Program-made: the position numbers and the translations under genes
Shown: positions 26,271-64,000 of the stretch, in pieces
Position numbering within the stretch: the first letter of the stretch is position 1
Layout of the letters: every line of letters starts with the position of its first letter
Source of the DNA: Scyliorhinus canicula
Lineage: Eukaryota
Length of the DNA stretch: 64,000 bases
Direction: 5' to 3'
Assembly (NCBI RefSeq): GCF_902713615.1
Contig: NC_052146.1
Coordinates: forward strand, 69,521,238-69,585,237
Notes under the pieces: generated by a model
The model's input: only the letters and a program-made list of their open reading frames with translations
What the model was told of the DNA's origin: nothing
Database searches by the model: none

Positions 26271-28370
26271 ATAGATGTTTACCATGATGTTTACAGCATG
26301 GAAACAGGCCCTTCGACCCAGCTTGTCCATGTCGCCCGGTTTCTATCACTAAGGCTCATAACCCTCTATATCCACTTTGCCCATGTAACGGTCTAACAAC
26401 TGCTTTTTAAAGGATAAAATTGTACCCGCCTCTACCACTGCCTCTGGCAGCCCATTCCAGATGCTCACCACCCTCTGTGTGAAGATAGGTCCCCTCTACC
26501 TTTGGGAAAAGATGCCGACTATCTACTTTATCTATGCTCCTCATTATTTTGTAGACCTCTATAAGTTCACCCCTAAGCCTCCAACGTCCCAGCAGAAAAG
26601 TTCCCAGCCTACCCAGCCTCTCCTTGTAACGCAGACCATCAAGTCATGGCAAAATCCCTGTAAATCTCATCTGCACTCTTTCTAGTTTAACAATATCCTT
26701 CCTATAATAGGGTGACCAGAACTGAACACAGTATTCCATGTGTGGTCTTACCAATGTCTTGTACAACTTCAACAAGACGTCCCAGCTCCTGTATTCAATA
26801 TTCTGATCACGAAAACCAAGCATGCTGAATGTCTTCTTCACCACCTTGTCCACCTGCGACTCCACCTTCAAGGGGCTATGAACCTGTACCCCTAGGTCTC
26901 CTTGTTCTGTAACTCTCCCCAACTCCCTACCATTAACTGAATAGGTCCTGCCGTGATTTGATCTACGAAAATGCATCACCTCACATTTATCCAAATTAAA
27001 CTCCATCTGCCATTCATCGGCCCACTGACCCAATTGGTCAAGATCCTGTTGCAATCTTATATAACCTTCTTCACTATCCACTATGCCACCAATCTTGGTG
27101 TTATCTGCAAACTTACTAACCATGCCTCCTACATTTTCATCCAAATCATTTATATATGTGACAAATAAGAGTGCACCCAGCACCGACCCCCGCGGCACAG
27201 TGCTGGCCACAGGCCTCCAGTGTGAATAACAACCCTCCACAACGGCCCTTTGACTTTGGTCGCCAAGCCAATTTTATATCCAATTGGCTACCTCACCCTG
27301 GATTCCGTGAGATTTAACCATTTGCAACAGCATACCGTTCGGTACCTTGTCAAAAGCCTTGCTAAAGTCCATGTAGACAACATTGACCACACTACCGTCA
27401 TCTACTTTCTTGCTTATCCCTTCAAAAAACTCAATCAAATTCGTGAGACCCGACTTTCCCCTCACAAAGCCATGCTGACTTTCCCTAATTAGCACTTACC
27501 TGTCTAAATACATGTAGATCTTGTCCCTCAGAATAACTTCCAACAATTTACCCATTACAGAAGTGAGGGTCACCGGTTTGTAGTTCCCAGGTTTATCCCT
27601 ACAGTCCTTCTTAAACAAGGGCACAATATTTGCTAACCACCAATATTCAGGCACCTCTCCTGTGGCTGTCGATCATTCAAGCACCTCAGCTAGGGGGCCG
27701 GCAAGTTCCTCCCTAGCCTCCCACAACGTCCTGGGATACATTTTATCAGGTCTCAGGGATATATCTATCTTGATGCACTTTAATACCGCAGGTACTTCCT
27801 TCTCTGTAATATGTATACTCATCAAGACATCACTTTTTATTTCCCTAATTTCCCTAACATTCGTGTCTTTCTCAACAGCAAATACTGATGAGAATTATTA
27901 ATTTAGGACCTGTTCCATCCCTTACGGATCCGCATGTAGATCACATTGTTTATCCTTAAGTCCCCTACTATTACCACTCTATTTTTCCGGCAGCTATCTG
28001 TAATCTCCTTACATTTTTGCTTCTCGATTTCCCACTGACTATTTGGGGGCCTATAGTACAGCCTCTCAAAGTGATCTCACCCATCTTACTTTTCAGTTCT
28101 TCCCACATGGACTCAGTGGGCGAACATTTCGACTTATCCTCTCTCTGGACTGCTGTGATGTTGTTGCTAATCAAAACGCAACTCCCCCTCCTCTCCTATC
28201 TCCTGGTCTATCTTTCCTATAGCATCTGTACCCCGGAACATTGAGCAGCCAGTCCTGCCCCACCTTCAGCCATGTTACAGTAATATCCATAATATCCTAG
28301 TCCCATGTATCTATCTATGCTTTGAGTTCATCTGCCTTGCCCGTTAGGCCTCTTGCATTGAAATAAATGT
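26271..28370 (-). mobile_element. CR1 LINE, 5'-truncated and internally deleted (EN and RT remnants)
   Basis: ESQHGFVRGKS.LTNLIEFF, YMDFSKAFDKVP, GSVLG.LLF, SKFADNTKIGG, CVQFWSP. Confidence 0.9.
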
Positions 28371-40799: not shown

Positions 40800-41491
40800 G
40801 TATAATTGCGGATCCTGTCCTGACCCATAGAACATAGAACAGTACAGCACAGAACAGGCCCTTCGGCCCTCAATGTTGTGCCGAGCCATGATCACCCTAC
40901 TCAAATCCACGTATCCACCCTATACCCGTAACCCAACAACCCCCCCTTAACCTTACTTTTATTAGGACACTACGGGCAATTTAGCATGGCCAATCCACCT
41001 AACCCGCACATCTTTGGACTGTGGGAGGAAACCAGAGCACCCGGAGGAAACCCACGCACACAGGGGGAGGACGTGCAGACTCCACACAGACAGTGACCCA
41101 GCCGGGAATCGAACCTGGGACCCTGGAGCTGTGAAGCATTTATGCTAACCACCATGCTACCCTGCTGCCCAACCAGGATCCATTTCGACCTCACCAGGGG
41201 AAACGATCACGATCACCTGTACCATGTCCAGAGGCAGCATCGGCAACCCCTACACGAGCTGGTACTGGCAGAAACTCGGCAGTGCCTCTGTGTTTATTTG
41301 GTCCGAGAGCTCTGGCACACCTTCTGGTATTCCGCAACGATTCACTGGGTCTGTGGATTCATCGAGTAAAACGATGCATTTAACCATCAGCAACGTGCAA
41401 TCGGAGGACCCCGCAGATAATTACTGGCGTGTTTGGCTAAACAGTATCGGTAGATTCATTTTCGGGAGAGGAACTAAATTGAATCTGGACA
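40800..41491 (+). pseudogene. IGLV: Germline-joined lambda VJ pseudo-exon, cluster 2
   Basis: Reads IIADPVLT[SINE]QPGSISTSPGETITITC..WYWQK..RFTGSVDSS..EDPADNYW-RVWLNSIGRFI-FGRGTKLNLD|GTAAG. The SINE lies inside the Gln codon of FR1, and YYC has become NYW. Confidence 0.93.
40827..41170 (-). mobile_element. Young HE1-type SINE inserted in V exon 2
   Basis: Nearly identical to the copies at 515, 36266 and 55514. Confidence 0.92.
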
Positions 41492-45819: not shown

Positions 45820-48310
45820 AGTGAACAAAGAACAAAGAAAATACAGCACAGTAACAGGGCCTTCGGCCCTCCAAGCCTGCGAGACCATGCTGCCCGTCTA
45901 AACTAAAATATTCTGCACTTCCGGGGTCCGTCTCCCTCTATTCCCATCCTAATCATTTATTTGTCAATATGCCCCTTAAACGTCACTATCGTTCCTGCTT
46001 CAACCACGTCCTCCGGTAGCGAGTTCCAGGCACCCAGTTGCCTCGTACATCACCTCTAAACCTTGCCCCTCGCACCTTAAACCTACGCCTCCTAATAATT
46101 GACCCATCCACTCTGGGGAAAAGCCTCTGTCCTTCCACTCTGTCTATGTCCCTCATAATTTTGTAAGCCTCTATCAGGTCGACCCTCAACCTCCCTCATT
46201 CCAGAGAGAACAAACCCAGTTTATTCAACTTCCCCATATAGCTAATGCCCTCCATACCAGGCAACATTCTGGTAAATCTCTTCTGCACCCCCTCTAAAGC
46301 CTCCACATCCCTCTGGTAGTGTGACGACCAAAATTGAACACTATACTCCAAGTGTGCCCTGAGTTTCTATGCAGCTGCAACATGACTTGCCAATTTTTAT
46401 TCTCAATGCCCCGGCCAACGAAGGCAAGCATGCCATATGCCTTCTTGACTACCTTCTCCAGCTGTGTTGCCCCTTTCAGTGACCTGTGGACCTGCACACC
46501 TAGATCTTTCTGACTGTCAATACGTTTGAGGATTCTACCCGTCACTGTATATTCCCTACCTGTATTAGACCTTCCAAAATGCATTGCCTCACATTTGTCC
46601 GGATTAAACACCATCTGCCATCTCTCCACCCAAGTCTCCAAATGATCTAAATCCTGCTGTATTCTCTGACAGTCCTCACCACTATCCGCAATTCCACCAA
46701 CCTTTGTGGCATCTGCAAATGTACTAATCAGACCAGTTACATTTTCCTCCCAATTGTTTATATATACTACGAACAGCAACGGTCCCAGCACTGATCCCTG
46801 TGGAACACCACCAGTCACAGCCCTCCAATCAGAAAAGCACCCTTCCATTGCTACTCTCTGCCTTCTATGACCCAGCCAGTTCTGTATCCATCTTGCCAGC
46901 TCACCTCTGATCCCGTGTGACTTCAACTTTTGTACCAGTCTGCTATGACGGACTTTGTCAAAGGCCTTACTGAAGTCCATATCGACAGTATACAATGGCC
47001 TACCTGCATCAATCACCTTTGTGACCTCCTCGAAAAACTCTATCAAGTTAGTGAGACACAACCTCCCCTACACAAAACCGTGCTGCCTCTCACTAATACG
47101 TTCAGTTGCTTCCAGATGGGAGTAGGTCCTTTCTCGAAGAAGTCTCTCCAGTAATTTCCCTACCGCTGACGTAAGGCTCACCAGCCTGTAGTTCCCTGGA
47201 TTATCCTTGCTACCCATATGAAACAAAGGAACAACATTGGCTATTCTCCAGTCCTCCAGGTCATCACCTGAAGACAGTGAGGATCCAAATATTTTTGTTA
47301 GGCATCAGCAATTTCCTCTCTTGCCTCCTTCAGTATTCTGGGCTAGATCCCATCAGGTCCTGGGGACTTATCCACCTTAATATTTTTCAAGACACCCAAT
47401 ACCTCATCTTTTTGAATCTCAAGGTGACCATGGCTATCTACACATCCTTCTCCAGACTCAACATCCACCAATACATTCTGTTTGGTGGATACTGATACAA
47501 AGTATTCATTTAGCACCTCGTCCATTTCCTCTGACTCCACACATAGATTCTCTCCTCTGTCTTTCAGTGGCCCGACTCTTTCCCTGGCCACCCGCTTGCT
47601 TTTTATGTAAGTGTAAAAAGCCTTGGGGTTTTCCTTAACCCGATTTGCCACTCCCCCTTTTTGTCACCCCGTTTAGCCCTCCTGACTCCTTGCTTAAGTA
47701 CCTTCCTACTTTCCTTATATTCCACACAGGCTTCGTCTGATCCCAGCCTTCTAACCCTGACAAATGCCTCCTTTTTCTATTTGACGAGACCTACAATTTA
47801 TTTCATTACCCAAGGTTCCCGAAATTTGCCATATTTATCCTTCTTCCACACAGGAACATGTCGGTCCTGAATTCCTTTCAACTGACATTGAAAGCCTCCC
47901 ACGTGTCAGATATTGATTTACCCTCAAACATCCGCCCCTAATTTATATTCTTCAGTTCCCACGTAATATTGTCATAATTAACCTTCCCCCTTTAGCACAT
48001 TTACCCTAGGTCCACTCTTATCCTTGTCCACAGCACTTTAAAACTTACTCAATCGTGGTCACTGTTCCTGAAAAGCTCCCACACTGAAACTTCTACCACC
48101 TGGCCGGGCTCATTCCCTAATAACAGGTCCAGTATAGCCCCTTCCCTAGTTGGACTATCTGCATATTGTTTTACGAAGCCCTCCTGGATGCTCCTTCCAA
48201 ACTCTGCCCAGTCGTAGTCCCTAGCACTAAGTGAGTACCAGTCAATATTGGGGAAGTTAAAGTCTCCCACCACAACAACCCTCTTGCTTTTTCTCCTTTC
48301 CCAATAACTA
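45820..48310 (-). mobile_element. CR1 LINE, truncated and frameshifted (EN and RT)
   Basis: VVVGDFNFPNIDW, SDH, NRVKENPKAFY, LTNLIEFF, QGSVLGPLLF, FADATKVGG; (ttctttg)n tail. Confidence 0.9.
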
Positions 48311-49554: not shown

Positions 49555-52500
49555 AAGAACATAAGAACTAGGAGCAGGAGTAGGCCATCTGGCCCCTCGA
49601 GCCTGCTCCGCCATTCAATGAGATCATGGCTGATCTTTTGTGGACTCAGGTCCACTTTCCGGCCTGAACACCATAACCCTTAATCCCTTTATTCTTCAAA
49701 AAAACGATCTATCTTTATCTTAAAAACATTTAATGAAGGAGCTTCTACTGCTTCACTGGGCAGGGAATTCCATAGATTCACAACCCTTTGGGTGAAGAAG
49801 TTCCTCCTAAACTCAGCCCTAAATCTACTTCCCCTTATTTTGAGGCTATGCCCCCCAGTTCTGCTTTCACCCGCCACTGGAAACAACATGCCCGCATCTA
49901 TCCTGTCTATTCCCTTCATAATTTTATATGTTTCTATATGATCCCCCCTCATCCTTCTAAATTCCAACGAGTACAGTCCCAGTCTACTCAACCACTCCTC
50001 GTAATCCAACCCCTTCAGCTCTGGGATTAACCTAGTGAATCTCCTCTCCACACCCTCCAGTGCCAGTACGTCCTTTCTCAAGTAAGGAGACCAAAACTGA
50101 ACACAATACTCCAGGTGTGGCTTCACTAACACCTTATACAATTGCAGCATAACCTCCCTAGTCTTAAACTCCATCCCTCTAGCAATAAAGGACAAAATTC
50201 CATTTGCCTTCTTAATCACCTGTTGCACCTGTAAACCAACTTTTTGCGACTCATACACTAGCACATCCAGGTCTCTCTGCACAGCAGCATGCTTCAATAT
50301 TTTATCATTTAAATAGTGATCCCGTTTGCTGTTATTCCTACAAAAATGTATAACCTCACATTTATCAACATTGTATTCCATCTGCCAGACCCTAGCCCAT
50401 TCACTTAATTTATCCAAATCCCTCTGCAGACTTCCAGTATCCTCTGCACTTTTCGCTTTACCATTTATCTTAGTGTCGTCTGCAAACTTGGACACATTGC
50501 CCTTGATTCCCCAACTCCAAATCATCTATGTAAATTGTGAACAATTGTCGGCCCAACACTGATCCTTGAGGGACACCACTAGCTACCGATTGCCAACCAG
50601 AGAAACACCCATTAATCCCCACTCTTTGCTTTCTATTAATTAACCAATCCTCTATCCATGCTAATACTTTACCCTTAATGCCATGCATCTTTATCTTATG
50701 CAGCAACCTTTTGTGTGGCACCTTGTCAAAGGCTCTCTGGAAATCCAGATATACCACATCCATTGGCTCCCCCGTTATCTACTGCACTGGTAATGTCCTC
50801 AAAAAATTCCACTAAATTAGATAGGCACGACCTGCCCTTTATGAACCCATGCTGCGTTTGCCCAATGGGGCAATTTCTATCCAGGTGACTCGCTATTTCT
50901 TCCTTGATTATAGGTTCCAGCATCTTCCCTACTACTGAAGTTAAGCTCACTGGCCTATAATTACCCGCTCTCTGCCTACCTCCTTTTTTAAACAATGGTG
51001 TCACGTTTGCTAATTTCCAATCCACCGGGACCACCACAGAGTCTCGTGAATTTTGGTAAATTATCGCTAGTGCATTTGCAATTTCCCTATCCATCTCTTT
51101 TAGCGCTCTGTGATGCATTCCATCAGGGCCAGGAGACTTGTCTACCTTTAGCCCCATTAGCTTGCCCATCACTACCACCTTAGTGATAAAATCCTCTCAA
51201 TGTCCTCACCTGTCATACCTTCTTTTCTATCAGTCACTGGCATGTTATTTGTGTCTTCCACTGTGAAGACCGACCTAAAAGACCTGTTCAGTTCCTCAGC
51301 CATTTCCTCATCTCCCATTATTAAAACTCCCTTCTCATCCTCTAAAGGACCAACATTTACCTTAGCCACTCTTTGTTGTTTTATATATTTGTAGAAACTT
51401 TTACTATCTGTTTTTATATTCTGAGCAAGTTTACTCTCATAATCTATCTTACTCTTCTTTATAGCTTTTTCAGTAGTTTTCTGTTGCCCCCCAAAGATTT
51501 CCCAGTCCTCTCGTCTCCCACTAATCTTTGCCATTTTATATGCTTTTTCCTTCAATTTGATACTCTCCCTTATTTCCTGAGATATCCACGGTCGATTTTC
51601 TCTCTTTCTACCGTCCTTCCTTTTTGTTGGTATAATTCTTTGCTGAGCACTGTGTAAAATCGCTTGGAAGGTTCTCCACTGTTCCTCAACTGTTCCACCA
51701 TAAAGTCTTTGCTCCCAGTTTACCTTAGCTAGTTCTTCTCTCATCCCATTGTAATCTCCTTTGTTTAAGCACAAAACACTAGTATTTGATTTTACCTTCT
51801 CACCCTCCATCTGTATTTTAAATTCCACCATATTGTGATCGCTCCTTCTGAGAGGATTCCTAACTATGAGATCATGAATCAATCCTGTCTCATTACACAG
51901 GACAAGATCTAGGACCGCTTGTTCCCTCCTAGGTTCCATTACATACTGTTCTAGGAAACTATCGTAGATACATTCTATAAACTCCTCCTCAAGGCTGCCT
52001 TGACCTGGTTAAACCAATCGACATGTAGATTAAAATCCACCATGATAATTGCTGTACCATTTCTACATGCATCAGTTATTTCTTTGTTTATTGCCTACCC
52101 CACCATAATGTTACTATTTGGTGGCCTATAGACTACTCCTATCAGTGACTTTTTCGCCTTACTATTCCTGATTTCCACCCAAATAGATTCAACCTTATCC
52201 TCCATAGCACCAATGTCGTCCCTTACTATTGCCCGGATGTCATCCTTAAAGAACAGAGCTACACCACCTCCCTTACCATCCACTCTGTCCTTCCAAATAG
52301 TTTGATACCCTCGGATATTTAACTCCCAGTCGTGACCATCCTTTAACCATGTTTCAGTAATGGCCACTGAATCATAGTCATTCACGATGATTTGCGCCAT
52401 CAACTCATTTACTTTATTCTGAATCCTACGAGCATTCAGGTAAAGTACATTTATGTTGGCTTTTTTACCTCTGTTTTGAATCTTAACATCTCGATCTCGA
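49555..52500 (-). mobile_element. CR1 LINE covering most of ORF2, frameshifted
   Basis: YLNARRIQNK..ETWL, LDLVLCNE, SDHNMV, NYRPVSLTSVVGK, YLDFQRAFDKVP, FADDTK; (ttcttat)n tail. Confidence 0.92.
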
Positions 52501-55513: not shown

Positions 55514-55831
55514 ATAGAACAGTACAGCACAGAACAGGCCCTTCGGCCCTCAATGTTGTGCCGAGCAATGATCACCCTACTTAAACCCACGTAACCCGTA
55601 TCCCAACAATCCCCCCATTAACCTTACACTACGGGAAATTTAGCATGGCCAATCCACCTAACCCACACATCTTTGGACTGTGGGAGGAAACCGGAGCACC
55701 CGGAGGAAACCCACGCACACACGGGGAGGACGTGCAGACTCCACACAGACAGTGACCCAGCCGGGAATCGAACCTGGGACCACTGGAGCTGTGAAGCATT
55801 GATGCTAACCACCATGCTATCGTGAGGCCCC
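55514..55831 (-). mobile_element. Young HE1-type SINE inserted in a LINE fragment
   Basis: Head ggggcctcacgatagcatgg closely matches the copy at 515, and the CR1 tail is present. Confidence 0.9.
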
Positions 55832-58047: not shown

Positions 58048-58360
58048 CAGTTAACGGAACATGTGAAATGTAGGGAAAACGTTAGAAGCTATTATTAAAA
58101 ACTTGGTGTCAGAAATTGCTGGATAGCACATAAGAAAAATCAGGGTAATCAGGTAGAAGCAGCACGCTTTTGTAAAAGGGAAATCATGTTTAATCATTTA
58201 TTGGAATTATTTCAGGAAGTAACATATATTGTGGACAAAGGGGAGCAGGTGGATGTACTGCACTTCATAGAACATAGAACATAGAACACTACAGCGCAGT
58301 ACGGGCCCTTCGGCCCTCGATGTTGCGCCGACCTGTGAAACCATCTGAAGCCTATCTGAC

Positions 58361-61252
58361 CTACACTATTCCATTTTCATCCATATGTCTATCCAGTGAC
58401 CACTTAAATGCCCTTAAAGTTGGCGAGTCTACTACTATTGCAGGCAGGGCGTTCCACACCCCGACTACTCTCTGAGTAAAGAAACTGCCTCTGACATCTG
58501 TCTTATATCTCTCACCCCTCAATTTAAAGCTATGTCCCCTCGTGTTGGTCATCACCATCCGAGGAAAAAGACTCTCACTGTCCACCCTATCTAACCCTCT
58601 GACTATCTTATATGTCTCTATTAAGTCACCTCTCAGCCTTCTCCTCTCTAATGAAAACAACCTCAATTCCCTGAGCCTTTCCTCGTAAGACCTTCCCTCC
58701 ATACCAGGCAACATCCTAGTAAATCTCCTCTGAACCCTTTCCAAAGCTTCCACATCCTTCCTATAATGTGGTGACCAGAACTGCACGCAGTACTCCAGGT
58801 GTGGCCGCACCAGAGTTATGTACAGCTGCAGCATGACCTTGTGGTTCCGAAACTCAATCCCCCTGCTTATAAAGGCTAGCACACCATATGCCTTCTTAAC
58901 AGCCCTATTAACCTGGGTGGCAACTTTCAGGGATTTATGTACCTGGATGCCGAGATCTCTCTGTTCATCTACACTACCAAGAATCTTGCCATTAGCCCAG
59001 TACTCTGCATTCCTGTTACTCCTTCCAAAGTGAACCACCTCACACTTTTCCGCATTAAACTCCATCTGCCACCTCTCAGCCCAGCTCTGCAGCTTATCTA
59101 TGTCCCTCTGTATCCTATAACATCCTTCAGCACTATCCACAACTCCACCGACCTTCGTGTCATCTGCAAATTTACTAACCCATCCTTCTACACCCTCTTC
59201 CAGGTCATTTATAAAAATGACAAACAGCAGTGGCCCCAAAACAGATCCTTGCGGTACACCACTTGTAACTGAACTCCAGGATGAACATTTGCCATCAACC
59301 ACCACCCTCTGTCTTCTTTCAGCTAGCCAATTACTGATCCAAACCGCTAAATCACCTTCAATTCCATACTTCCTTATTTTCTGCAATAGCCTACCGTGGG
59401 GAACCTTATCAAACGCCTTACTGAAATCCATATACACCACATCAACAGCTTTACCCTGATCCACCTGTTTGGTCACCTTCTCAAAAAACTCAATAAGGTT
59501 TGTGAGACATGACCTACCCTTCACAAAACCGTGTTGAGTATCGCTAATCAACTTGTTCTTTTCAAGATGATTATAAACCCTATCTCTTATAACCTTTTCC
59601 AACAGTTTACCCACAACCGAAGTAAGGCTCACAGGTCTATAATTACCAGGGTTGTCTCTACTCCCCTTCTTGAACAAGGGGACAACATTTGCTATCCTCC
59701 AGTCTTCCGGCACTATTCCTGTCGACAAAGACGACATAAAGATCAAGGACAAAGGCTCTGCAATCTCCTCCCTGGCTTCCCAGAGAATCCTAGGATAAAT
59801 CCCATCTGGCCCAGGGGACTTATCTATTTTGACATTTTCTAAAATTGCTAACACCTCCTCCTTTTGAACCTCAATTCCATCTAGCCTGGTCGACTGAACC
59901 TGAGTGTTCTCCTCGACAACATTGTCTTTCTCCAGTGTAAACACTGACGAAAAATATCCATTTAATGCTTCCCCTATCTCCTCTGATTCCACACACAACT
60001 TTCCACTACTATCCTTGATTGGCCCTAATCTTACTCGAGTCATTCTTTTGTTCCTGATATACCTATAGAAAGCCTTAGGGTTTTCCTTGATCCTATCCGC
60101 CAACGACTTTTCGTGTCCTCTCCTCGCTCTTCTTAACTCTCCCTTTAGGTCCTTCCTGGCTAACTTGTAACTCTCAAGTGCCCTAACTGAGCCTTCATGT
60201 CTCATCCTAACATAAGCCTTCTTCTTCCTCTTGACAAGTGCTTCAACTTCCTTAGTAAACCACGGCTCCCTTGCTCGACAACTTCCTCCCTGCCTGACAG
60301 GTACATACTTATCAAGGACACGCAGTAGCTGTTCCTTGAAAAAGCTCCACATTTCGATTGTACCCATCCCCTGCAGTTTCCTTCCCCATCCTATACCTCC
60401 TAAATCTTGCCGAATAGCATCATAATTGCCTTTCCCCCAGCTATAATTCTTGCCTTGCGGTATATACCTATCCCTGCCCATTGCTAAAGTAAACATAACC
60501 GAGTTGTGATCACTATCACCAAAGTGCTCACCTACATCTAAATCTAACACCTGGCCGGGTTCATTACCCAGTACCAAATCCAATGTGGCCTCGCCCCTTG
60601 TTGGCCTGTCTACATACTGTGTCAGAAAACCTTCCTGCACACACTGCACAAAAACTGACCCATCTATAGTACTCGAACTATAGTATTTCCAGTCAATATT
60701 TGGAAAGTTAAAGTCCCCCATAACAACTACCCTGTTACTCTCGCTCCTGTCAAGAATCATCTTTCCAATCCTTTCCTCTACATCTCTGGGACTATTCGGA
60801 GGTCTATAGACAACTCCCAACAGGGTGACCTCTCCTCTACTGCTCCTAACCTCGGCCCATACTGCCTCAGTAGACGAGTCCTCAAGCGTCCTTTCTACCG
60901 CCGTAATACTTTCCTTGATTAACAATGCCACACCCCCCCCTCTTTTACCATCTTCTCTGTTCTTACAGAAACATCTAAATCCTGGAACCTGCAACAACCA
61001 TTCCTGTCCCTGCTCTACCCATGTCTCCGAAATCGCCACAACATCGAGATCCCAGGTACCAACCCATGCTGCAAGCTCACCCACCTTATTCCGGATGCTC
61101 CTGGCGTTGAAGTAGACACACTTCAAACCAGCGTCCTGCTTGCCGGTGCCCTCTTTCGAACTTTTAACCCTATCCCTGACCTCACTACTCTCAACATCCT
61201 GTACACTGGGACTACAATTTAGGTTCCCATCCCCCTGCTGAATTAGTTTAAA
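58361..61252 (-). CDS. CR1 ORF2: APE endonuclease plus reverse transcriptase; the frame is open from the ORF1 overlap, with no AUG before EN motif I
   Basis: YFNARSI, SETW, GDFNFP, SDHN, YMDFSKAFD, QGSVLGP, FADD. The track start at 61126 is a TTG. The frame stays open 42 codons further upstream to TTT at 61252. Confidence 0.93.
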   Translation of the reverse strand, partial: FKLIQQGDGNLNCSPSVQDVESSEVRDRVKSSKEGTGKQDAGLKCVYFNARSIRNKVGELAAWVGTWDLDVVAISETWVEQGQEWLLQVPGFRCFCKNREDGKRGGGVALLIKESITAVERTLEDSSTEAVWAEVRSSRGEVTLLGVVYRPPNSPRDVEERIGKMILDRSESNRVVVMGDFNFPNIDWKYYSSSTIDGSVFVQCVQEGFLTQYVDRPTRGEATLDLVLGNEPGQVLDLDVGEHFGDSDHNSVMFTLAMGRDRYIPQGKNYSWGKGNYDAIRQDLGGIGWGRKLQGMGTIEMWSFFKEQLLRVLDKYVPVRQGGSCRAREPWFTKEVEALVKRKKKAYVRMRHEGSVRALESYKLARKDLKGELRRARRGHEKSLADRIKENPKAFYRYIRNKRMTRVRLGPIKDSSGKLCVESEEIGEALNGYFSSVFTLEKDNVVEENTQVQSTRLDGIEVQKEEVLAILENVKIDKSPGPDGIYPRILWEAREEIAEPLSLIFMSSLSTGIVPEDWRIANVVPLFKKGSRDNPGNYRPVSLTSVVGKLLEKVIRDRVYNHLEKNKLISDTQHGFVKGRSCLTNLIEFFEKVTKQVDQGKAVDVVYMDFSKAFDKVPHGRLLQKIRKYGIEGDLAVWISNWLAERRQRVVVDGKCSSWSSVTSGVPQGSVLGPLLFVIFINDLEEGVEGWVSKFADDTKVGGVVDSAEGCYRIQRDIDKLQSWAERWQMEFNAEKCEVVHFGRSNRNAEYWANGKILGSVDEQRDLGIQVHKSLKVATQVNRAVKKAYGVLAFISRGIEFRNHKVMLQLYITLVRPHLEYCVQFWSPHYRKDVEALERVQRRFTRMLPGMEGRSYEERLRELRLFSLERRRLRGDLIETYKIVRGLDRVDSESLFPRMVMTNTRGHSFKLRGERYKTDVRGSFFTQRVVGVWNALPAIVVDSPTLRAFKWSLDRHMDENGIV

Positions 61253-62178
61253 CCCCCCCGAAGAGCACTAGCAAATCTCCCCCCCAGGATATTGGTACCC
61301 CTCTGGTTCAGGTGAAGACCATCCTGTTTGTAGAGGTCCCACCTACCCCAGAATGAGCCCCAATTATCCAGGAAACCAAAACCCTCCCTCCTGCACCATC
61401 CCTGTAGCCACGTGTTCAACTCCTCTCTCTCCTTATTTCTCACTTCGCTAGCACGTGGCACGGGTAACAACCCAGAGATAACAACTCTGTTTGTTCTAGC
61501 TCTCAGTTTCCACCCTAGCTCCCTGAATTTCTGTCTCAAATCCCCATCTCTCTTCCTACCTATGTCGTTGGTACCTATGTGGACCACGACTTGGGGCTGC
61601 TCCCCCTCCCCCTTAAGGATCCCAAAAACACGATCAGAGACATCACGAACCCTGGCACCTGGGAGGCAACACACCAACCGTGAGTCTCTTTCGTTCCCAC
61701 AGAACCTCCTGTCTGTTCCTCTAACTATGGAGTCCCCAATGACAAGTGCTCTGTTCCTCTTCTCCCTTCCCTTCTGAGCAACAGGGACAGACTCTGTGCC
61801 AGAGACCTGCGCCCTATTGCTTACCCCTGGTAAGTCGTCCCCCGCAACAGTATCCAAAACGGTATACTTGTTATAGAGGGGAACGACCACAGGGGATCCC
61901 TGCACTGCCTGCCGGTTCCCTCTCCCTCCCCTGACGGTAACCCATCTACTTTCTTCTTTTACCTGAGGTGTGACTACCTCCCTATAACTCCTCTCAATAA
62001 CCTCCTCCGCCTCCCGAATGATCCGAAGTTCATCCAGCTCCAGCTCCCTAATGCGGCTCTCGAGGAGCTGGAGTTGGGTGCACTTCCCGCAGATGTAATC
62101 AGAAGGGACACTAGAGGTGACCCTTTCCTCCCACATTCTGCAGGAGGAACATTCAACTGCCCTAGCCTCCATTCCCAC
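61243..62178 (-). CDS. CR1 ORF1: CxxC..CxxC zinc finger/coiled coil plus SGNH esterase domain (311 aa)
   Basis: CSSC..CGKC and the esterase blocks GDS, PGA, GTND and DGLH. Confidence 0.92.
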   Translation of the reverse strand: MGMEARAVECSSCRMWEERVTSSVPSDYICGKCTQLQLLESRIRELELDELRIIREAEEVIERSYREVVTPQVKEESRWVTVRGGRGNRQAVQGSPVVVPLYNKYTVLDTVAGDDLPGVSNRAQVSGTESVPVAQKGREKRNRALVIGDSIVRGTDRRFCGNERDSRLVCCLPGARVRDVSDRVFGILKGEGEQPQVVVHIGTNDIGRKRDGDLRQKFRELGWKLRARTNRVVISGLLPVPRASEVRNKEREELNTWLQGWCRREGFGFLDNWGSFWGRWDLYKQDGLHLNQRGTNILGGRFASALRGGLN

Positions 62179-62337
62179 TGAACTAACTTCCCAACTACTG
62201 AAAAATAAAAAACTTGTTAGTTTAGCAATCCAATGGACAGAGCTTTTTTTTTGGTTAGAGGAGGAGGATGGGTGGGAGACACTACGTAAGTAGTGTTTCG
62301 GGTAAAGCTGTCACTCGAGAACAGCCCCTTCACAAAC

Positions 62338-64000
62338 CACCTTCAACTTACGCTGACCGCACTGCACGTATGCAAATCTCCCCGGAACAGCCAATCAGAA
62401 GCTCTGCTCTGCTGCCCTCTGCTGGATGCTCACCTTCCGTCGAACTCCTCGGGTCACTGATGCAGGTGCACCTTCAACTTACGCTGACCGCACTGCACGT
62501 ATGTAAATCTCCCCGGAACAGCCAATCAGAAGCTCTGCTCTGCTGCCCTCTGCTGGATGCTCACCTTCCGTCGAACTCCTCGGGTCACTGATGCAGGTGC
62601 ACCTTCAACTTACGCTGACCGCACTGCACGTATGCAAATCTCCCCGGAACAGCCAATCAGAAGCTCTGCTCTGCTGCCCTCTGCTGGATGCTCACCTTCC
62701 GTCGAACTCCTCGGGTCACTGATGCAGGTGCACCTTCAACTTACGCTGACCGCACTGCACGTATGTAAATCTCCCCGGAACAGCCAATCAGAAGCTCTGC
62801 TCTGCTGCCCTCTGCTGGATGCTCACCTTCCGTCGAACTCCTCGGGTCACTGATGCAGGTGCACCTTCAACTTACGCTGACCGCACTGCACGTATGCAAA
62901 TCTCCCCGGAACAGCCAATCAGAAGCTCTGCTCTGCTGCCCTCTGCTGGATGCTCACCTTCCGTCGAACTCCTCGGGTCACTGATGCAGGTGCACCTTCA
63001 ACTTACGCTGACCGCACTGCACGTATGCAAATCTCCCCGGAACAGCCAATCAGAAGCTCTGCTCTGCTGCCCTCTGCTGGATGCTCACCTTCCGTCGAAC
63101 TCCTCGGGTCACTGATGCAGGTGCACCTTCAACTTACGCTGACCGCACTGCACGTATGTAAATCTCCCCGGAACAGCCAATCAGAAGCTCTGCTCTGCTG
63201 CCCTCTGCTGGATGCTCACCTTCCGTCGAACTCCTCGGGTCACTGATGCAGGTGCACCTTCAACTTACGCTGACCGCACTGCACGTATGCAAATCTCCCC
63301 GGAACAGCCAATCAGAAGCTCTGCTCTGCTGCCCTCTGCTGGATGCTCACCTTCCGTCGAACTCCTCGGGTCACTGATGCAGGTGCACCTTCAACTTACG
63401 CTGACCGCACTGCACGTATGCAAATCTCCCCGGAACAGCCAATCAGAAGCTCTGCTCTGCTGCCCTCTGCTGGATGCTCACCTTCCGTCGAACTCCTCGG
63501 GTCCCTGATGCAGGTGCACCTTCAACTTACGCTGACCGCACTGCACGTATGTAAATCTCCCCGCAACAGCCAATCAGAAGCTCTGCTCTGCTGCCCTCTG
63601 CTGGATGCTCACCTTCCGTCGAACTCCTCGGGTCACTGATGCAGGTGCACCTTCAACTTACGCTGACCGCACTGCACGTATGCAAATCTCCCCGGAACAG
63701 CCAATCAGAAGCTCTGCTCTGCTGCCCTCTGCTGGATGCTCACCTTCCGTCGAACTCCTCGGGTCACTGATGCAGGTGCACCTTCAACTTACGCTGACCG
63801 CACTGCACGTATGCAAATCTCCCCGGAACAGCCAATCAGAAGCTCTGCTCTGCTGCCCTCTGCTGGATGCTCACCTTCCGTCGAACTCCTCGGGTCACTG
63901 ATGCAGGTGCACCTTCAACTTACGCTGACCGCACTGCACGTATGCAAATCTCCCCGGAACAGCCAATCAGAAGCTCTGCTCTGCTGCCCTCTGCTGGATG
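62338..64000. repeat. 131-bp tandem array (at least 12.7 units, running off the window) fused to the CR1 5' end
   Basis: Exact 131-bp period. There are 13 octamer positions from 62370 (9 ATGCAAAT, 4 ATGTAAAT), 13 CCAAT from 62391 and 12 CAGGTG from 62463. Confidence 0.97.

What the first reader, a model, noticed from the sequence alone, without database searches (positions are those of the whole stretch)
61200..61275. Candidate programmed -1 ribosomal frameshift fusing CR1 ORF1 to ORF2
ORF1 ends CGG GGG GGT TTA AAC TAA. In that frame there are two overlapping X_XXY_YYZ heptamers, G_GGU_UUA (61255-61249) and U_UUA_AAC (61252-61246, the coronavirus slippery sequence), directly before the stop. 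A -1 slip gives TTT AAA CTA ATT CAG, which is the ORF2 frame, open to 58361. That frame is closed by TAG just upstream, so the roughly 25-nt overlap holds only the slippery site and no AUG. The first in-frame Met lies over 100 codons into the endonuclease, after essential motifs. The inference is that ORF2 is made as an ORF1-ORF2 fusion, as with retroviral gag-pol, unlike the termination-reinitiation described for L1. The G-rich sequence downstream (GGGGGAUGGGAAC..GUCCC) could be a stimulator. Frameshifting may already have been proposed for other CR1s, which needs a literature check.
Basis: partly seen in the sequence, partly recalled or inferred. Interest (0 to 1): 0.75.

Follow-up and report, generated by a model that had tools for sequence, protein, structure and literature searches.

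The report
Ribosome-slip junction in CR1 jumping genes
An abundant vertebrate jumping gene (a CR1 LINE) ends its first gene on a seven-letter slippery sequence plus a stop, followed 11 bases on by a run of Gs, and its second gene starts one base back with no start codon, so its copying enzyme is likely made by ribosomes slipping back one base and fusing the two proteins.

Summary
Observation confirmed. The element is a young, intact CR1 LINE (esterase ORF1, endonuclease-RT ORF2), probably of a shark. ORF1 ends U_UUA_AAC-UAA. ORF2 lies in the -1 frame, and its first Met falls after the residues that match L1 endonuclease E43 and Y115. The heptamer stands in 109 of 115 own-genome loci. It is kept codon for codon in 18 picked lineage representatives, including bird/reptile-like ones, while nearby Leu codons vary. 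Distant ORF1 relatives end in Gly-Asn or Lys-Asn, the dipeptides of other strong slip sites (protein only). Instead a G-run starts 8-13 nt after the heptamer in 16 of 16 representatives. Pairing of that run with the 5' UTR or the 3' tail was not supported. Best reading: programmed -1 frameshifting (0.8), not shown experimentally. Main rival: AUG-independent reinitiation. Ten searches found no paper describing it for CR1, but older CR1 papers were unreadable. This scan noted the same signal before in other genomes.

The parts
62338..64000 (-). 5' UTR tandem array, 131-bp unit x 12.7 (runs off the window)
62173..62337 (-). unique 5' UTR, with a hairpin plus C-rich module shared by some other subfamilies
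61243..62172 (-). ORF1, 309 aa from ATG 62172: Cys-pair N-terminus and SGNH/GDSL esterase, ends Leu-Asn-stop
   Evidence: (PF13472, E 3e-14)
61268..61270 (-). TAG closing the ORF2 (-1) frame upstream; leaves a 25-nt ORF1/ORF2 overlap
61249..61255 (-). G_GGU_UUA, second possible slip site; present in 9 of 18 lineage representatives only
61246..61252 (-). U_UUA_AAC slippery heptamer in ORF1 phase; inferred -1 frameshift site
61243..61245 (-). ORF1 stop TAA directly after the heptamer (stop adjacent in 16 of 18 representatives)
61226..61235 (-). G-tract GGGGG-AT-GGG starting 11 nt after the heptamer; conserved in position; candidate 3' stimulator (inferred)
61121..61245 (-). -1 frame linker between the shift site and the endonuclease; no ATG, no stop; length and sequence differ between subfamilies
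58361..61267 (-). ORF2 frame, 968 codons: APE endonuclease (about 61120-60506) and reverse transcriptase (about 59665-58997)
60758..60760 (-). first in-frame ATG of ORF2, aligned near residue 131 of the L1 endonuclease, after the E43 and Y115 equivalents
58266..58360 (-). 3' UTR: CR1-type stem-loop and three GTTCTAT tail repeats

Best explanation
This is an intact young CR1 LINE whose ORF2 is likely made by programmed -1 ribosomal frameshifting at the U_UUA_AAC that ends ORF1. Shown: the heptamer, the adjacent stop, the -1 register, the missing AUG and their conservation. Inferred: most ribosomes stop at UAA and release the 309-aa esterase ORF1p. A minority, with tRNA-Leu and tRNA-Asn on UUA-AAC, re-pair one base back on UUU-AAA and continue at the CUA codon, giving a predicted 1270-aa esterase-linker-endonuclease-RT fusion at a fixed low ratio, as in gag-pol. 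The pause likely comes from the adjacent stop together with the G-tract at +11, which shows no conserved base-paired fold. It would act as a protein-binding site or a G-quadruplex seed; which of these is untested.
For: (1) Heptamer at a position-anchored site (the HMM used for anchoring lacked the last ORF1 columns) in 109 of 115 own-genome loci from 11 clusters. (2) Codon-level constraint: 18 of 18 picked representatives read N|TTA|AAC, 17 with T and 1 with G at the wobble position of a variable residue (Gly, Thr, Asp, Ala, Cys, Ser), while conserved upstream Leu codons vary; background joint frequency 0.013. (3) ORF1 homologues from sharks, rays, frogs and turtles end in Leu-Asn: 42 of 50 with a DG.H motif; snake, lizard, varanid, swallow and sturgeon proteins do too. 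(4) Of 108 of 150 distant representatives that reach the esterase end, 53 end LN; of the other 55, 10 end GN and 2 KN (background 0.079 per dipeptide, P = 0.001 ignoring relatedness). These are the dipeptides of G_GGA_AAC and A_AAA_AAC, which PMC5009743 lists with U_UUA_AAC among the most shift-prone heptamers (passage). (5) The endonuclease motif is in the -1 frame in 73 of the 96 loci where its frame could be called (115 examined). (6) Between heptamer and first Met or endonuclease the -1 frame has 0 stops in 289 codons over 10 lineages, against 49 in the other two frames (copies picked as intact). (7) The first Met sits at codon 4, 5, 23, 26, 29, 30, 37 or 49, or after the endonuclease start: no conserved start. 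(8) A G-run of 4 or more starts at +8 to +13 in 16 of 16 representatives (background 0.025 per 5-nt window); 29 of 34 Gly codons there are GGG against 30% in ORF2. (9) No splice joint over the junction in 4 RNA runs.
Against: No translation product, reporter or ribosome profile was seen. No conserved stimulatory hairpin was found: z-scores were -1.1 or higher in 16 representatives; pseudoknots were not modelled. One subfamily has TAATG, the SART1-type stop-start overlap. Lineages share ancestry, so the probabilities above are not independent trials. Queries contained the terminal Leu or Leu-Asn, which favours hits that keep them (this does not affect codon choice). For the GN/KN-ending relatives no DNA could be obtained. 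37 of the 55 non-LN relatives have no slip-compatible end. 23 of 96 loci have the endonuclease in another frame (read as decayed copies with indels).
Confidence: 0.8

Rival explanations
1. AUG-independent termination-reinitiation, as proposed for L1: ribosomes finish ORF1 and restart in the -1 frame at or near the stop (ATT at 61243 here; ATG in the TAATG subfamily), making a separate ORF2p.
For: It needs the same open linker and no AUG. One subfamily has TAATG, the overlap used by SART1 (PMC3708506 passage). L1 ORF2 is thought to use AUG-independent initiation (PMC5009743 passage). PMC3708506 argues that ORF1p must be separate from ORF2p.
Against: It does not explain why T|TTA|AAC is kept letter for letter, or why distant relatives switch to dipeptides of other slip sites. 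The -1 frame codon overlapping the stop varies (ATT, GAG, ATG, GTA, GTT, AAA, GAT, GGT).
Confidence: 0.11
2. The frame is corrected at the RNA level: polymerase slippage adds one G in the G7 run before the heptamer, or a splice joins ORF1 to ORF2.
For: 6 RNA reads carry one extra base in that run (2 of 14, 4 of 39, 0 of 114, 0 of 30), which would put ORF2 in frame. All 30 genomic copies of this subfamily examined have G7.
Against: The G7 run is peculiar to this subfamily; others have GGAGGG or GGAC/GGGC before the heptamer. The reads may come from rare genomic copies or from sequencing error in a homopolymer. The only joint seen (61130-61211) has non-canonical ends and does not span the stop.
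Confidence: 0.04
3. Leu-Asn is a protein-level requirement of the esterase C-terminus, and ORF2 starts independently at a downstream AUG or near-cognate codon.
For: L308 and N309 are invariant in alignment A1 (rows were picked among LN-ending proteins). Several subfamilies do have a Met before the endonuclease.
Against: Codon identity and the preceding wobble T are fixed. In this subfamily the first Met would drop the E43 and Y115 equivalents. The stretch before the first Met is kept open. A sister clade of 8 esterase ORF1s that includes a teleost protein has no such end.
Confidence: 0.03

Closest known systems
Canonical vertebrate CR1 LINEs with esterase ORF1 (PMC13343379; PMC3905857)
   Same: SGNH esterase ORF1, APE-RT ORF2, 5' tandem subunits, stem-loop 3' UTR with short tail repeats. 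This element is a member.
   Different: The word 'frameshift' occurs 0 times in the main text of either paper; how ORF2 is translated is not described in the passages seen.
Dictyostelium TRE5-A and TRE3-A (APE-type non-LTR elements)
   Same: A figure legend in PMC5911963 states that both need a -1 frameshift for ORF2: precedent for -1 frameshifting in a LINE.
   Different: Different clade and host, different ORF1, oligo(A) tail. I did not see the primary evidence or their slip sites.
Coronavirus/arterivirus ORF1a/1b and retroviral gag-pol -1 frameshifting
   Same: Same heptamer class: U_UUA_AAC; G_UUA_AAC as in equine arteritis virus occurs in L069 (PMC5009743 passages). Polymerase is made as a C-terminal extension.
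   Different: Those usually use a pseudoknot or hairpin 5-9 nt downstream (recalled); none is conserved here. This is a non-viral LINE.
Protein-stimulated arterivirus nsp2 frameshift (nsp1beta plus PCBP on CCCANCUCC)
   Same: A short sequence motif 11 nt after the shift site (PMC5009743 passage); the CR1 G-run most often starts at +11 (11 of 16).
   Different: C-rich there, G-rich here; no binding protein is known for the CR1 tract. An analogy only.
L1 and SART1 termination-reinitiation
   Same: Bicistronic LINE RNA, ORF2 made at low level near the ORF1 stop.
   Different: Those give a separate ORF2p; L1 has a short gap between the ORFs and SART1 a UAAUG. Here the ORFs overlap at a conserved slip site.

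Membership tests
Canonical CR1 LINE | ORF2 with APE endonuclease and RT | tested here: met
   PF03372 E 5e-20, PF00078 E 2e-36; L1 endonuclease structures hit
Canonical CR1 LINE | esterase-type ORF1 | tested here: met
   PF13472 E 3e-14
Canonical CR1 LINE | 3' stem-loop and short tandem tail instead of poly(A) | tested here: met
   stem-loop then three GTTCTAT repeats
Canonical CR1 LINE | RT phylogeny placing it in the CR1 clade rather than L2 | not tested
   No RT tree built; the ORF1 tree (quick tree) groups shark/ray-type proteins with amniote ones
Programmed -1 ribosomal frameshift signal | X_XXY_YYZ heptamer in the 0-frame phase inside a short ORF overlap | tested here: met
Programmed -1 ribosomal frameshift signal | downstream ORF in the -1 frame without its own usable start | tested here: met
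Programmed -1 ribosomal frameshift signal | nucleotide-level conservation of the heptamer beyond protein needs | tested here: met
Programmed -1 ribosomal frameshift signal | 3' stimulatory hairpin a few nt downstream | tested here: not met
   No fold better than shuffles in 16 representatives; a positioned G-run is conserved instead
Programmed -1 ribosomal frameshift signal | 3' stimulatory pseudoknot | not tested
   RNAfold does not model pseudoknots; no conserved local complement of the G-run appeared in the duplex scan
Programmed -1 ribosomal frameshift signal | trans-frame product or reporter activity | not testable with these tools
   needs reporter, mass spectrometry or ribosome profiling
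Long-distance (BYDV-like) frameshift stimulator | covarying pairing between the post-heptamer region and the 3' end | tested here: not met
   8x8 cofold matrix: cognate mean -6.8, non-cognate -7.3 kcal/mol, permutation p 0.72; single copies per family, so weak pairing is not excluded
G-quadruplex-stimulated frameshift | stable G4 within about 6-8 nt of the heptamer | tested here: inconclusive
   G4 is the predicted minimum in 5 of 16 representatives, not in the window copy; G4Hunter windows rank in the top 0.1-12% of the element
SART1-type UAAUG reinitiation | overlapping stop-start UAAUG | tested here: not met
   Window has TAATT; ATG in that place in 2 of 16 representatives

The most novel reading that the evidence does not exclude
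Esterase-type CR1 LINEs from sharks to birds, and distant relatives that swapped to other slip heptamers, make their reverse transcriptase as an ORF1-ORF2 fusion by -1 frameshifting, driven not by a pseudoknot but by the adjacent stop plus a G-tract at +11 that binds a protein (host G-tract binder or ORF1p itself) or folds as a G-quadruplex. That would be a protein- or quadruplex-stimulated frameshift in a cellular transposon; the 2016 review says no natural G-quadruplex stimulator was then known.
Probability: 0.35. Interest if true: 0.87.

Novelty: new variant of a known kind. Interest (0 to 1): 0.72.

Why it matters
How LINEs translate ORF2 is open outside L1 and SART1 (PMC3708506 passage). 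The CR1 group is the dominant retrotransposon of most vertebrates and 22-34% of shark and ray genomes (PMC13343379). If true, its RT is a gag-pol-like fusion tethered to an esterase that has been linked to lipids, the annotated ORF2 starts of CR1s are wrong, the ORF1p:RT ratio is set by one short signal, and a compact eukaryotic frameshift cassette without a hairpin can be tested in a week with standard reporters.

Tried and rejected
Pairing of the G-tract with a C-rich 5' UTR stretch: 10 bp possible in the window copy, but the module is missing in other subfamilies and shows no covariation: rejected. Pairing with the 3' end (lead from earlier scan notes): the window and one other copy score well against shuffles (3 of 100 and 0 of 100; others 3 to 83 of 100), but cognate pairs are no better than non-cognate (p 0.72): not supported. 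Second heptamer G_GGU_UUA as the main site: not conserved. Calicivirus-type UGGGA reinitiation motif (recalled): here it lies after the stop and is not shared by bird-like copies; dropped. DNA for GN/KN-ending relatives: none in viral contigs; genome contigs gave 2 loci that did not reach the junction. Of 31 metagenome loci: 7 gave an anchored junction, all with the heptamer; 3 decayed ones showed TTTAAAC on direct search; 5 ran off the contig; 4 were weak matches without it (L084, L087, L088, L098); 12 did not reach the ORF1 end. Fixed in-frame ORF1-ORF2 fusions: the search of longer proteins gave 4 hits, none a full fusion (weak evidence). Run finder: no listed holder on record as RNA; raw RNA runs were laid instead. 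The careful tree did not finish; the quick tree was used. Literature: 10 searches listed no paper describing frameshifting in CR1; one search was uninformative. Papers seen as passages only: PMC5009743 (first 300,000 of 449,034 characters held; 'CR1' 0 times), PMC3905857, PMC13343379, PMC3708506, PMC2734521, PMC5911963, PMC4255032, PMC3919603 (abstract and passages). Not held: four look-ups meant for Haas 2001, Kojima 2005, Kapitonov and Jurka 2003 and Alisch 2006. Haas 1997 and Kajikawa 1997 (recalled) were not looked up; these older CR1 papers and Repbase entries may already mention the overlap or a frameshift. No supplements were read.
Full report
The observation. On the minus strand ORF1 ends CGG GGG GGT TTA AAC TAA. 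G_GGU_UUA is at 61255-61249, U_UUA_AAC at 61252-61246 and the stop at 61245-61243. The -1 frame is closed by TAG at 61270-61268 and then runs 968 codons to 58361. Its first Met is codon 170 (60760); the endonuclease motif begins at codon 50.

The element. ORF1 (309 aa) is an SGNH esterase; ORF2 has an APE endonuclease and RT. Upstream lies a 131-bp tandem array; downstream a stem-loop and three GTTCTAT repeats. This is a canonical esterase-type CR1 LINE. The closest named ORF1 homologues are from sharks and rays, so the host is probably a shark (inference). The subfamily is young: all 150 scored hits were 100% identical over the last 80 residues of ORF1.

Why ORF2 cannot start at its first AUG. 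The N-terminal part aligns with L1 endonuclease residues 23-149. The first Met falls near residue 131, after the ISET Glu (L1 E43) and the VYRP Tyr (L1 Y115) (that these are active-site residues is recalled). Of 30 copies, 29 have no Met in the first 46 codons of the -1 frame; the one exception has lost a G. Across lineages the first Met is at codon 4, 5, 23, 26, 29, 30, 37 or 49, or beyond the endonuclease start. Yet the stretch before it is kept open: 0 stops in 289 codons over 10 lineages against 49 in the other two frames (these copies were picked as intact, and an eleventh had no recognisable motif). Translation therefore most likely enters ORF2 at the junction itself.

Conservation of the heptamer. 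I anchored the junction by position with a profile that lacked the last ORF1 columns. In 115 own-genome loci (67 from four searches plus one fused copy, 48 from a fifth; they include the window's own copy), falling into 11 clusters, 109 have TTTAAAC there. The six others carry single substitutions or indels. Queries did contain the final Leu or Leu-Asn, which favours such hits. The endonuclease motif is in the -1 frame in 73 of 96 loci where a frame could be called, in 0 or +1 in 23, and uncalled in 19. Among 31 metagenome loci, 7 gave an anchored junction: 6 TTTAAAC and 1 GTTAAAC. Most of these resemble bird or reptile CR1 by their ORF1 end (inference; the hosts are not named).

The constraint is on nucleotides. 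In 18 representatives (one picked per lineage, unmutated copies preferred) the last codons are always TTA AAC. The base before is T in 17 and G in 1, although the residue there is Gly, Thr, Asp, Ala, Cys or Ser. Conserved Leu codons a few residues upstream vary freely. Background in the same ORFs: TTA 0.11 of Leu, AAC 0.48 of Asn, T 0.24 at four-fold sites, joint 0.013. A stop follows at once in 16 of 18. The upstream G_GGU_UUA is present in only 9 of 18.

Reach. ORF1 homologues end in Leu-Asn in sharks, rays, frogs and turtles (42 of 50 with a DG.H motif; most of the rest are fragments), and in snake, lizards, swallow and sturgeon. Of 150 distant representatives, 108 reach the esterase end: 53 end LN, 10 GN, 2 KN, 6 more have a slip-compatible pair one residue in, and 37 have none. 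LN, GN, KN and GF are what U_UUA_AAC, G_GGA_AAC, A_AAA_AAC and G_GGU_UUU encode, the four heptamers that PMC5009743 names among the most shift-prone for mammalian ribosomes. On a quick tree the GN, KN and FF ends sit in one clade of 24 rows that also holds an LN, so several switches seem to stay inside the slippery set. A well supported clade of 8, with a teleost protein, has no such end. These relatives are unnamed and I have no DNA for them, so this line is suggestive only.

The stimulator. What is shared is a G-run of 4-7 starting at +8 to +13, at +11 in 11 of 16, usually followed after two bases by GGG. Background for such a run is 0.025 per 5-nt window, and 29 of 34 Gly codons in this stretch are GGG against 114 of 377 in ORF2. 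So the tract is selected as RNA. Three partners were tested. A 5' UTR C-rich stretch pairs over 10 bp in this copy but is absent from other subfamilies. The 3' end, a lead from earlier scan notes on other LINEs, shows no cognate preference (p 0.72), though two of eight families bind their own end better than all ORF2 windows. A G-quadruplex is the predicted minimum in 5 of 16, not in the window copy; synthetic G4s do stimulate -1 shifts at UUUAAAC with a 6-8 nt spacer (PMC3919603). The +11 spacing equals that of the protein-bound arterivirus motif. A stop near the shift site is known to matter in an umbravirus. I favour stop plus protein-bound or quadruplex-forming G-tract; this step is inferred.

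RNA. Four raw RNA runs of the same species label cover the junction (mean depth 13-106 in that bin; reads come from many copies). No joint spans the ORF1 stop. None of the 40 substitution rows shown lies in 61243-61255 (166 further rows were not shown). Six reads have one extra base in the G7 run, which would fuse the frames; that run is peculiar to this subfamily, so it is not the general mechanism. One genomic copy of another subfamily (L059) has an extra T in the heptamer and a continuous 1330-codon frame; it is a single mutant copy.

Mechanism and rivals. Programmed -1 frameshifting to a predicted 1270-aa fusion explains the overlap, the register, the missing AUG, the open linker and the codon-level conservation together (0.8). 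AUG-independent reinitiation explains all but the last (0.11); one subfamily's TAATG keeps it alive. RNA-level correction (0.04) and a protein-level constraint with a downstream start (0.03) fit poorly.

What is known. -1 frameshifting is stated for the Dictyostelium LINEs TRE5-A and TRE3-A (PMC5911963 legend). L1 is thought to use AUG-independent initiation and SART1 a UAAUG. Ten searches listed no paper describing a frameshift in CR1; a 2026 survey of the CR1 group and the esterase structure paper do not contain the word, and the held part of the 2016 frameshifting review does not mention CR1. The original chicken and turtle CR1 papers could not be read and may note it. This scan recorded the same signal in other genomes; those are unchecked AI notes, and my reading was fixed before I saw them.

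Verdict. A real, deeply conserved recoding-type signal in an ordinary CR1 copy. New variant of a known kind; interest 0.72. It is cheap to test and would settle how the commonest vertebrate LINE group makes its RT.

Noticed in passing
window 62338-64000 (-): 131-bp unit x 12.7, 99% identical, forming the element's 5' end; each unit has a CCAAT-like (ATTGG) and an ATTTGCAT octamer-like word (motif names recalled), as expected for a monomer promoter.
   Followed up: partly
window about 62300-62254 (-); L032, L033, L041, L060, L065: A small hairpin followed by a C-rich tract is shared by 5' UTRs of subfamilies whose ORF1s are about 40% identical, while the rest of those UTRs is unrelated; absent in L031, L036, L042, L051. 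Function unknown.
   Followed up: partly
L032, 5' UTR: Carries the window-type tandem 5' UTR on an ORF1 of another subfamily: a 5' UTR swap between CR1 lineages.
   Followed up: no
L059 (G000:C5:162603000-162608500): One extra T in the heptamer gives a single 1330-codon ORF1-ORF2 frame in this copy.
   Followed up: partly
window about 62215-62197 (-); also L031, L041, L051 5' UTRs: Pyrimidine tract and AG just before the ORF1 ATG, with GTAAGT/GTGAGT words further up in several subfamilies: possible 5' UTR intron.
   Followed up: no
L153, L154, L166, 3' UTR: All three copies of this subfamily carry the same SINE-like insert of about 250 nt between the ORF2 stop and the terminal stem-loop.
   Followed up: no
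window 61130-61211, RNA reads: A transcribed sibling subfamily keeps the junction through about 32 nt after the stop and then has a different linker until the endonuclease (joint and loose ends).
   Followed up: no
window 46248-48300, 49921-51031, 26615-27663 (-): Older, 5'-truncated CR1 ORF2 fragments at 63-72% identity, and several short 3'-end matches (40826-40884, 791-841, 55514-55564) that look like CR1-tailed SINEs.
   Followed up: no
protein P0007: A 73%-identical CR1 ORF1 is filed as a Pseudomonas aeruginosa SGNH hydrolase, most likely host DNA contamination of that record.
   Followed up: no
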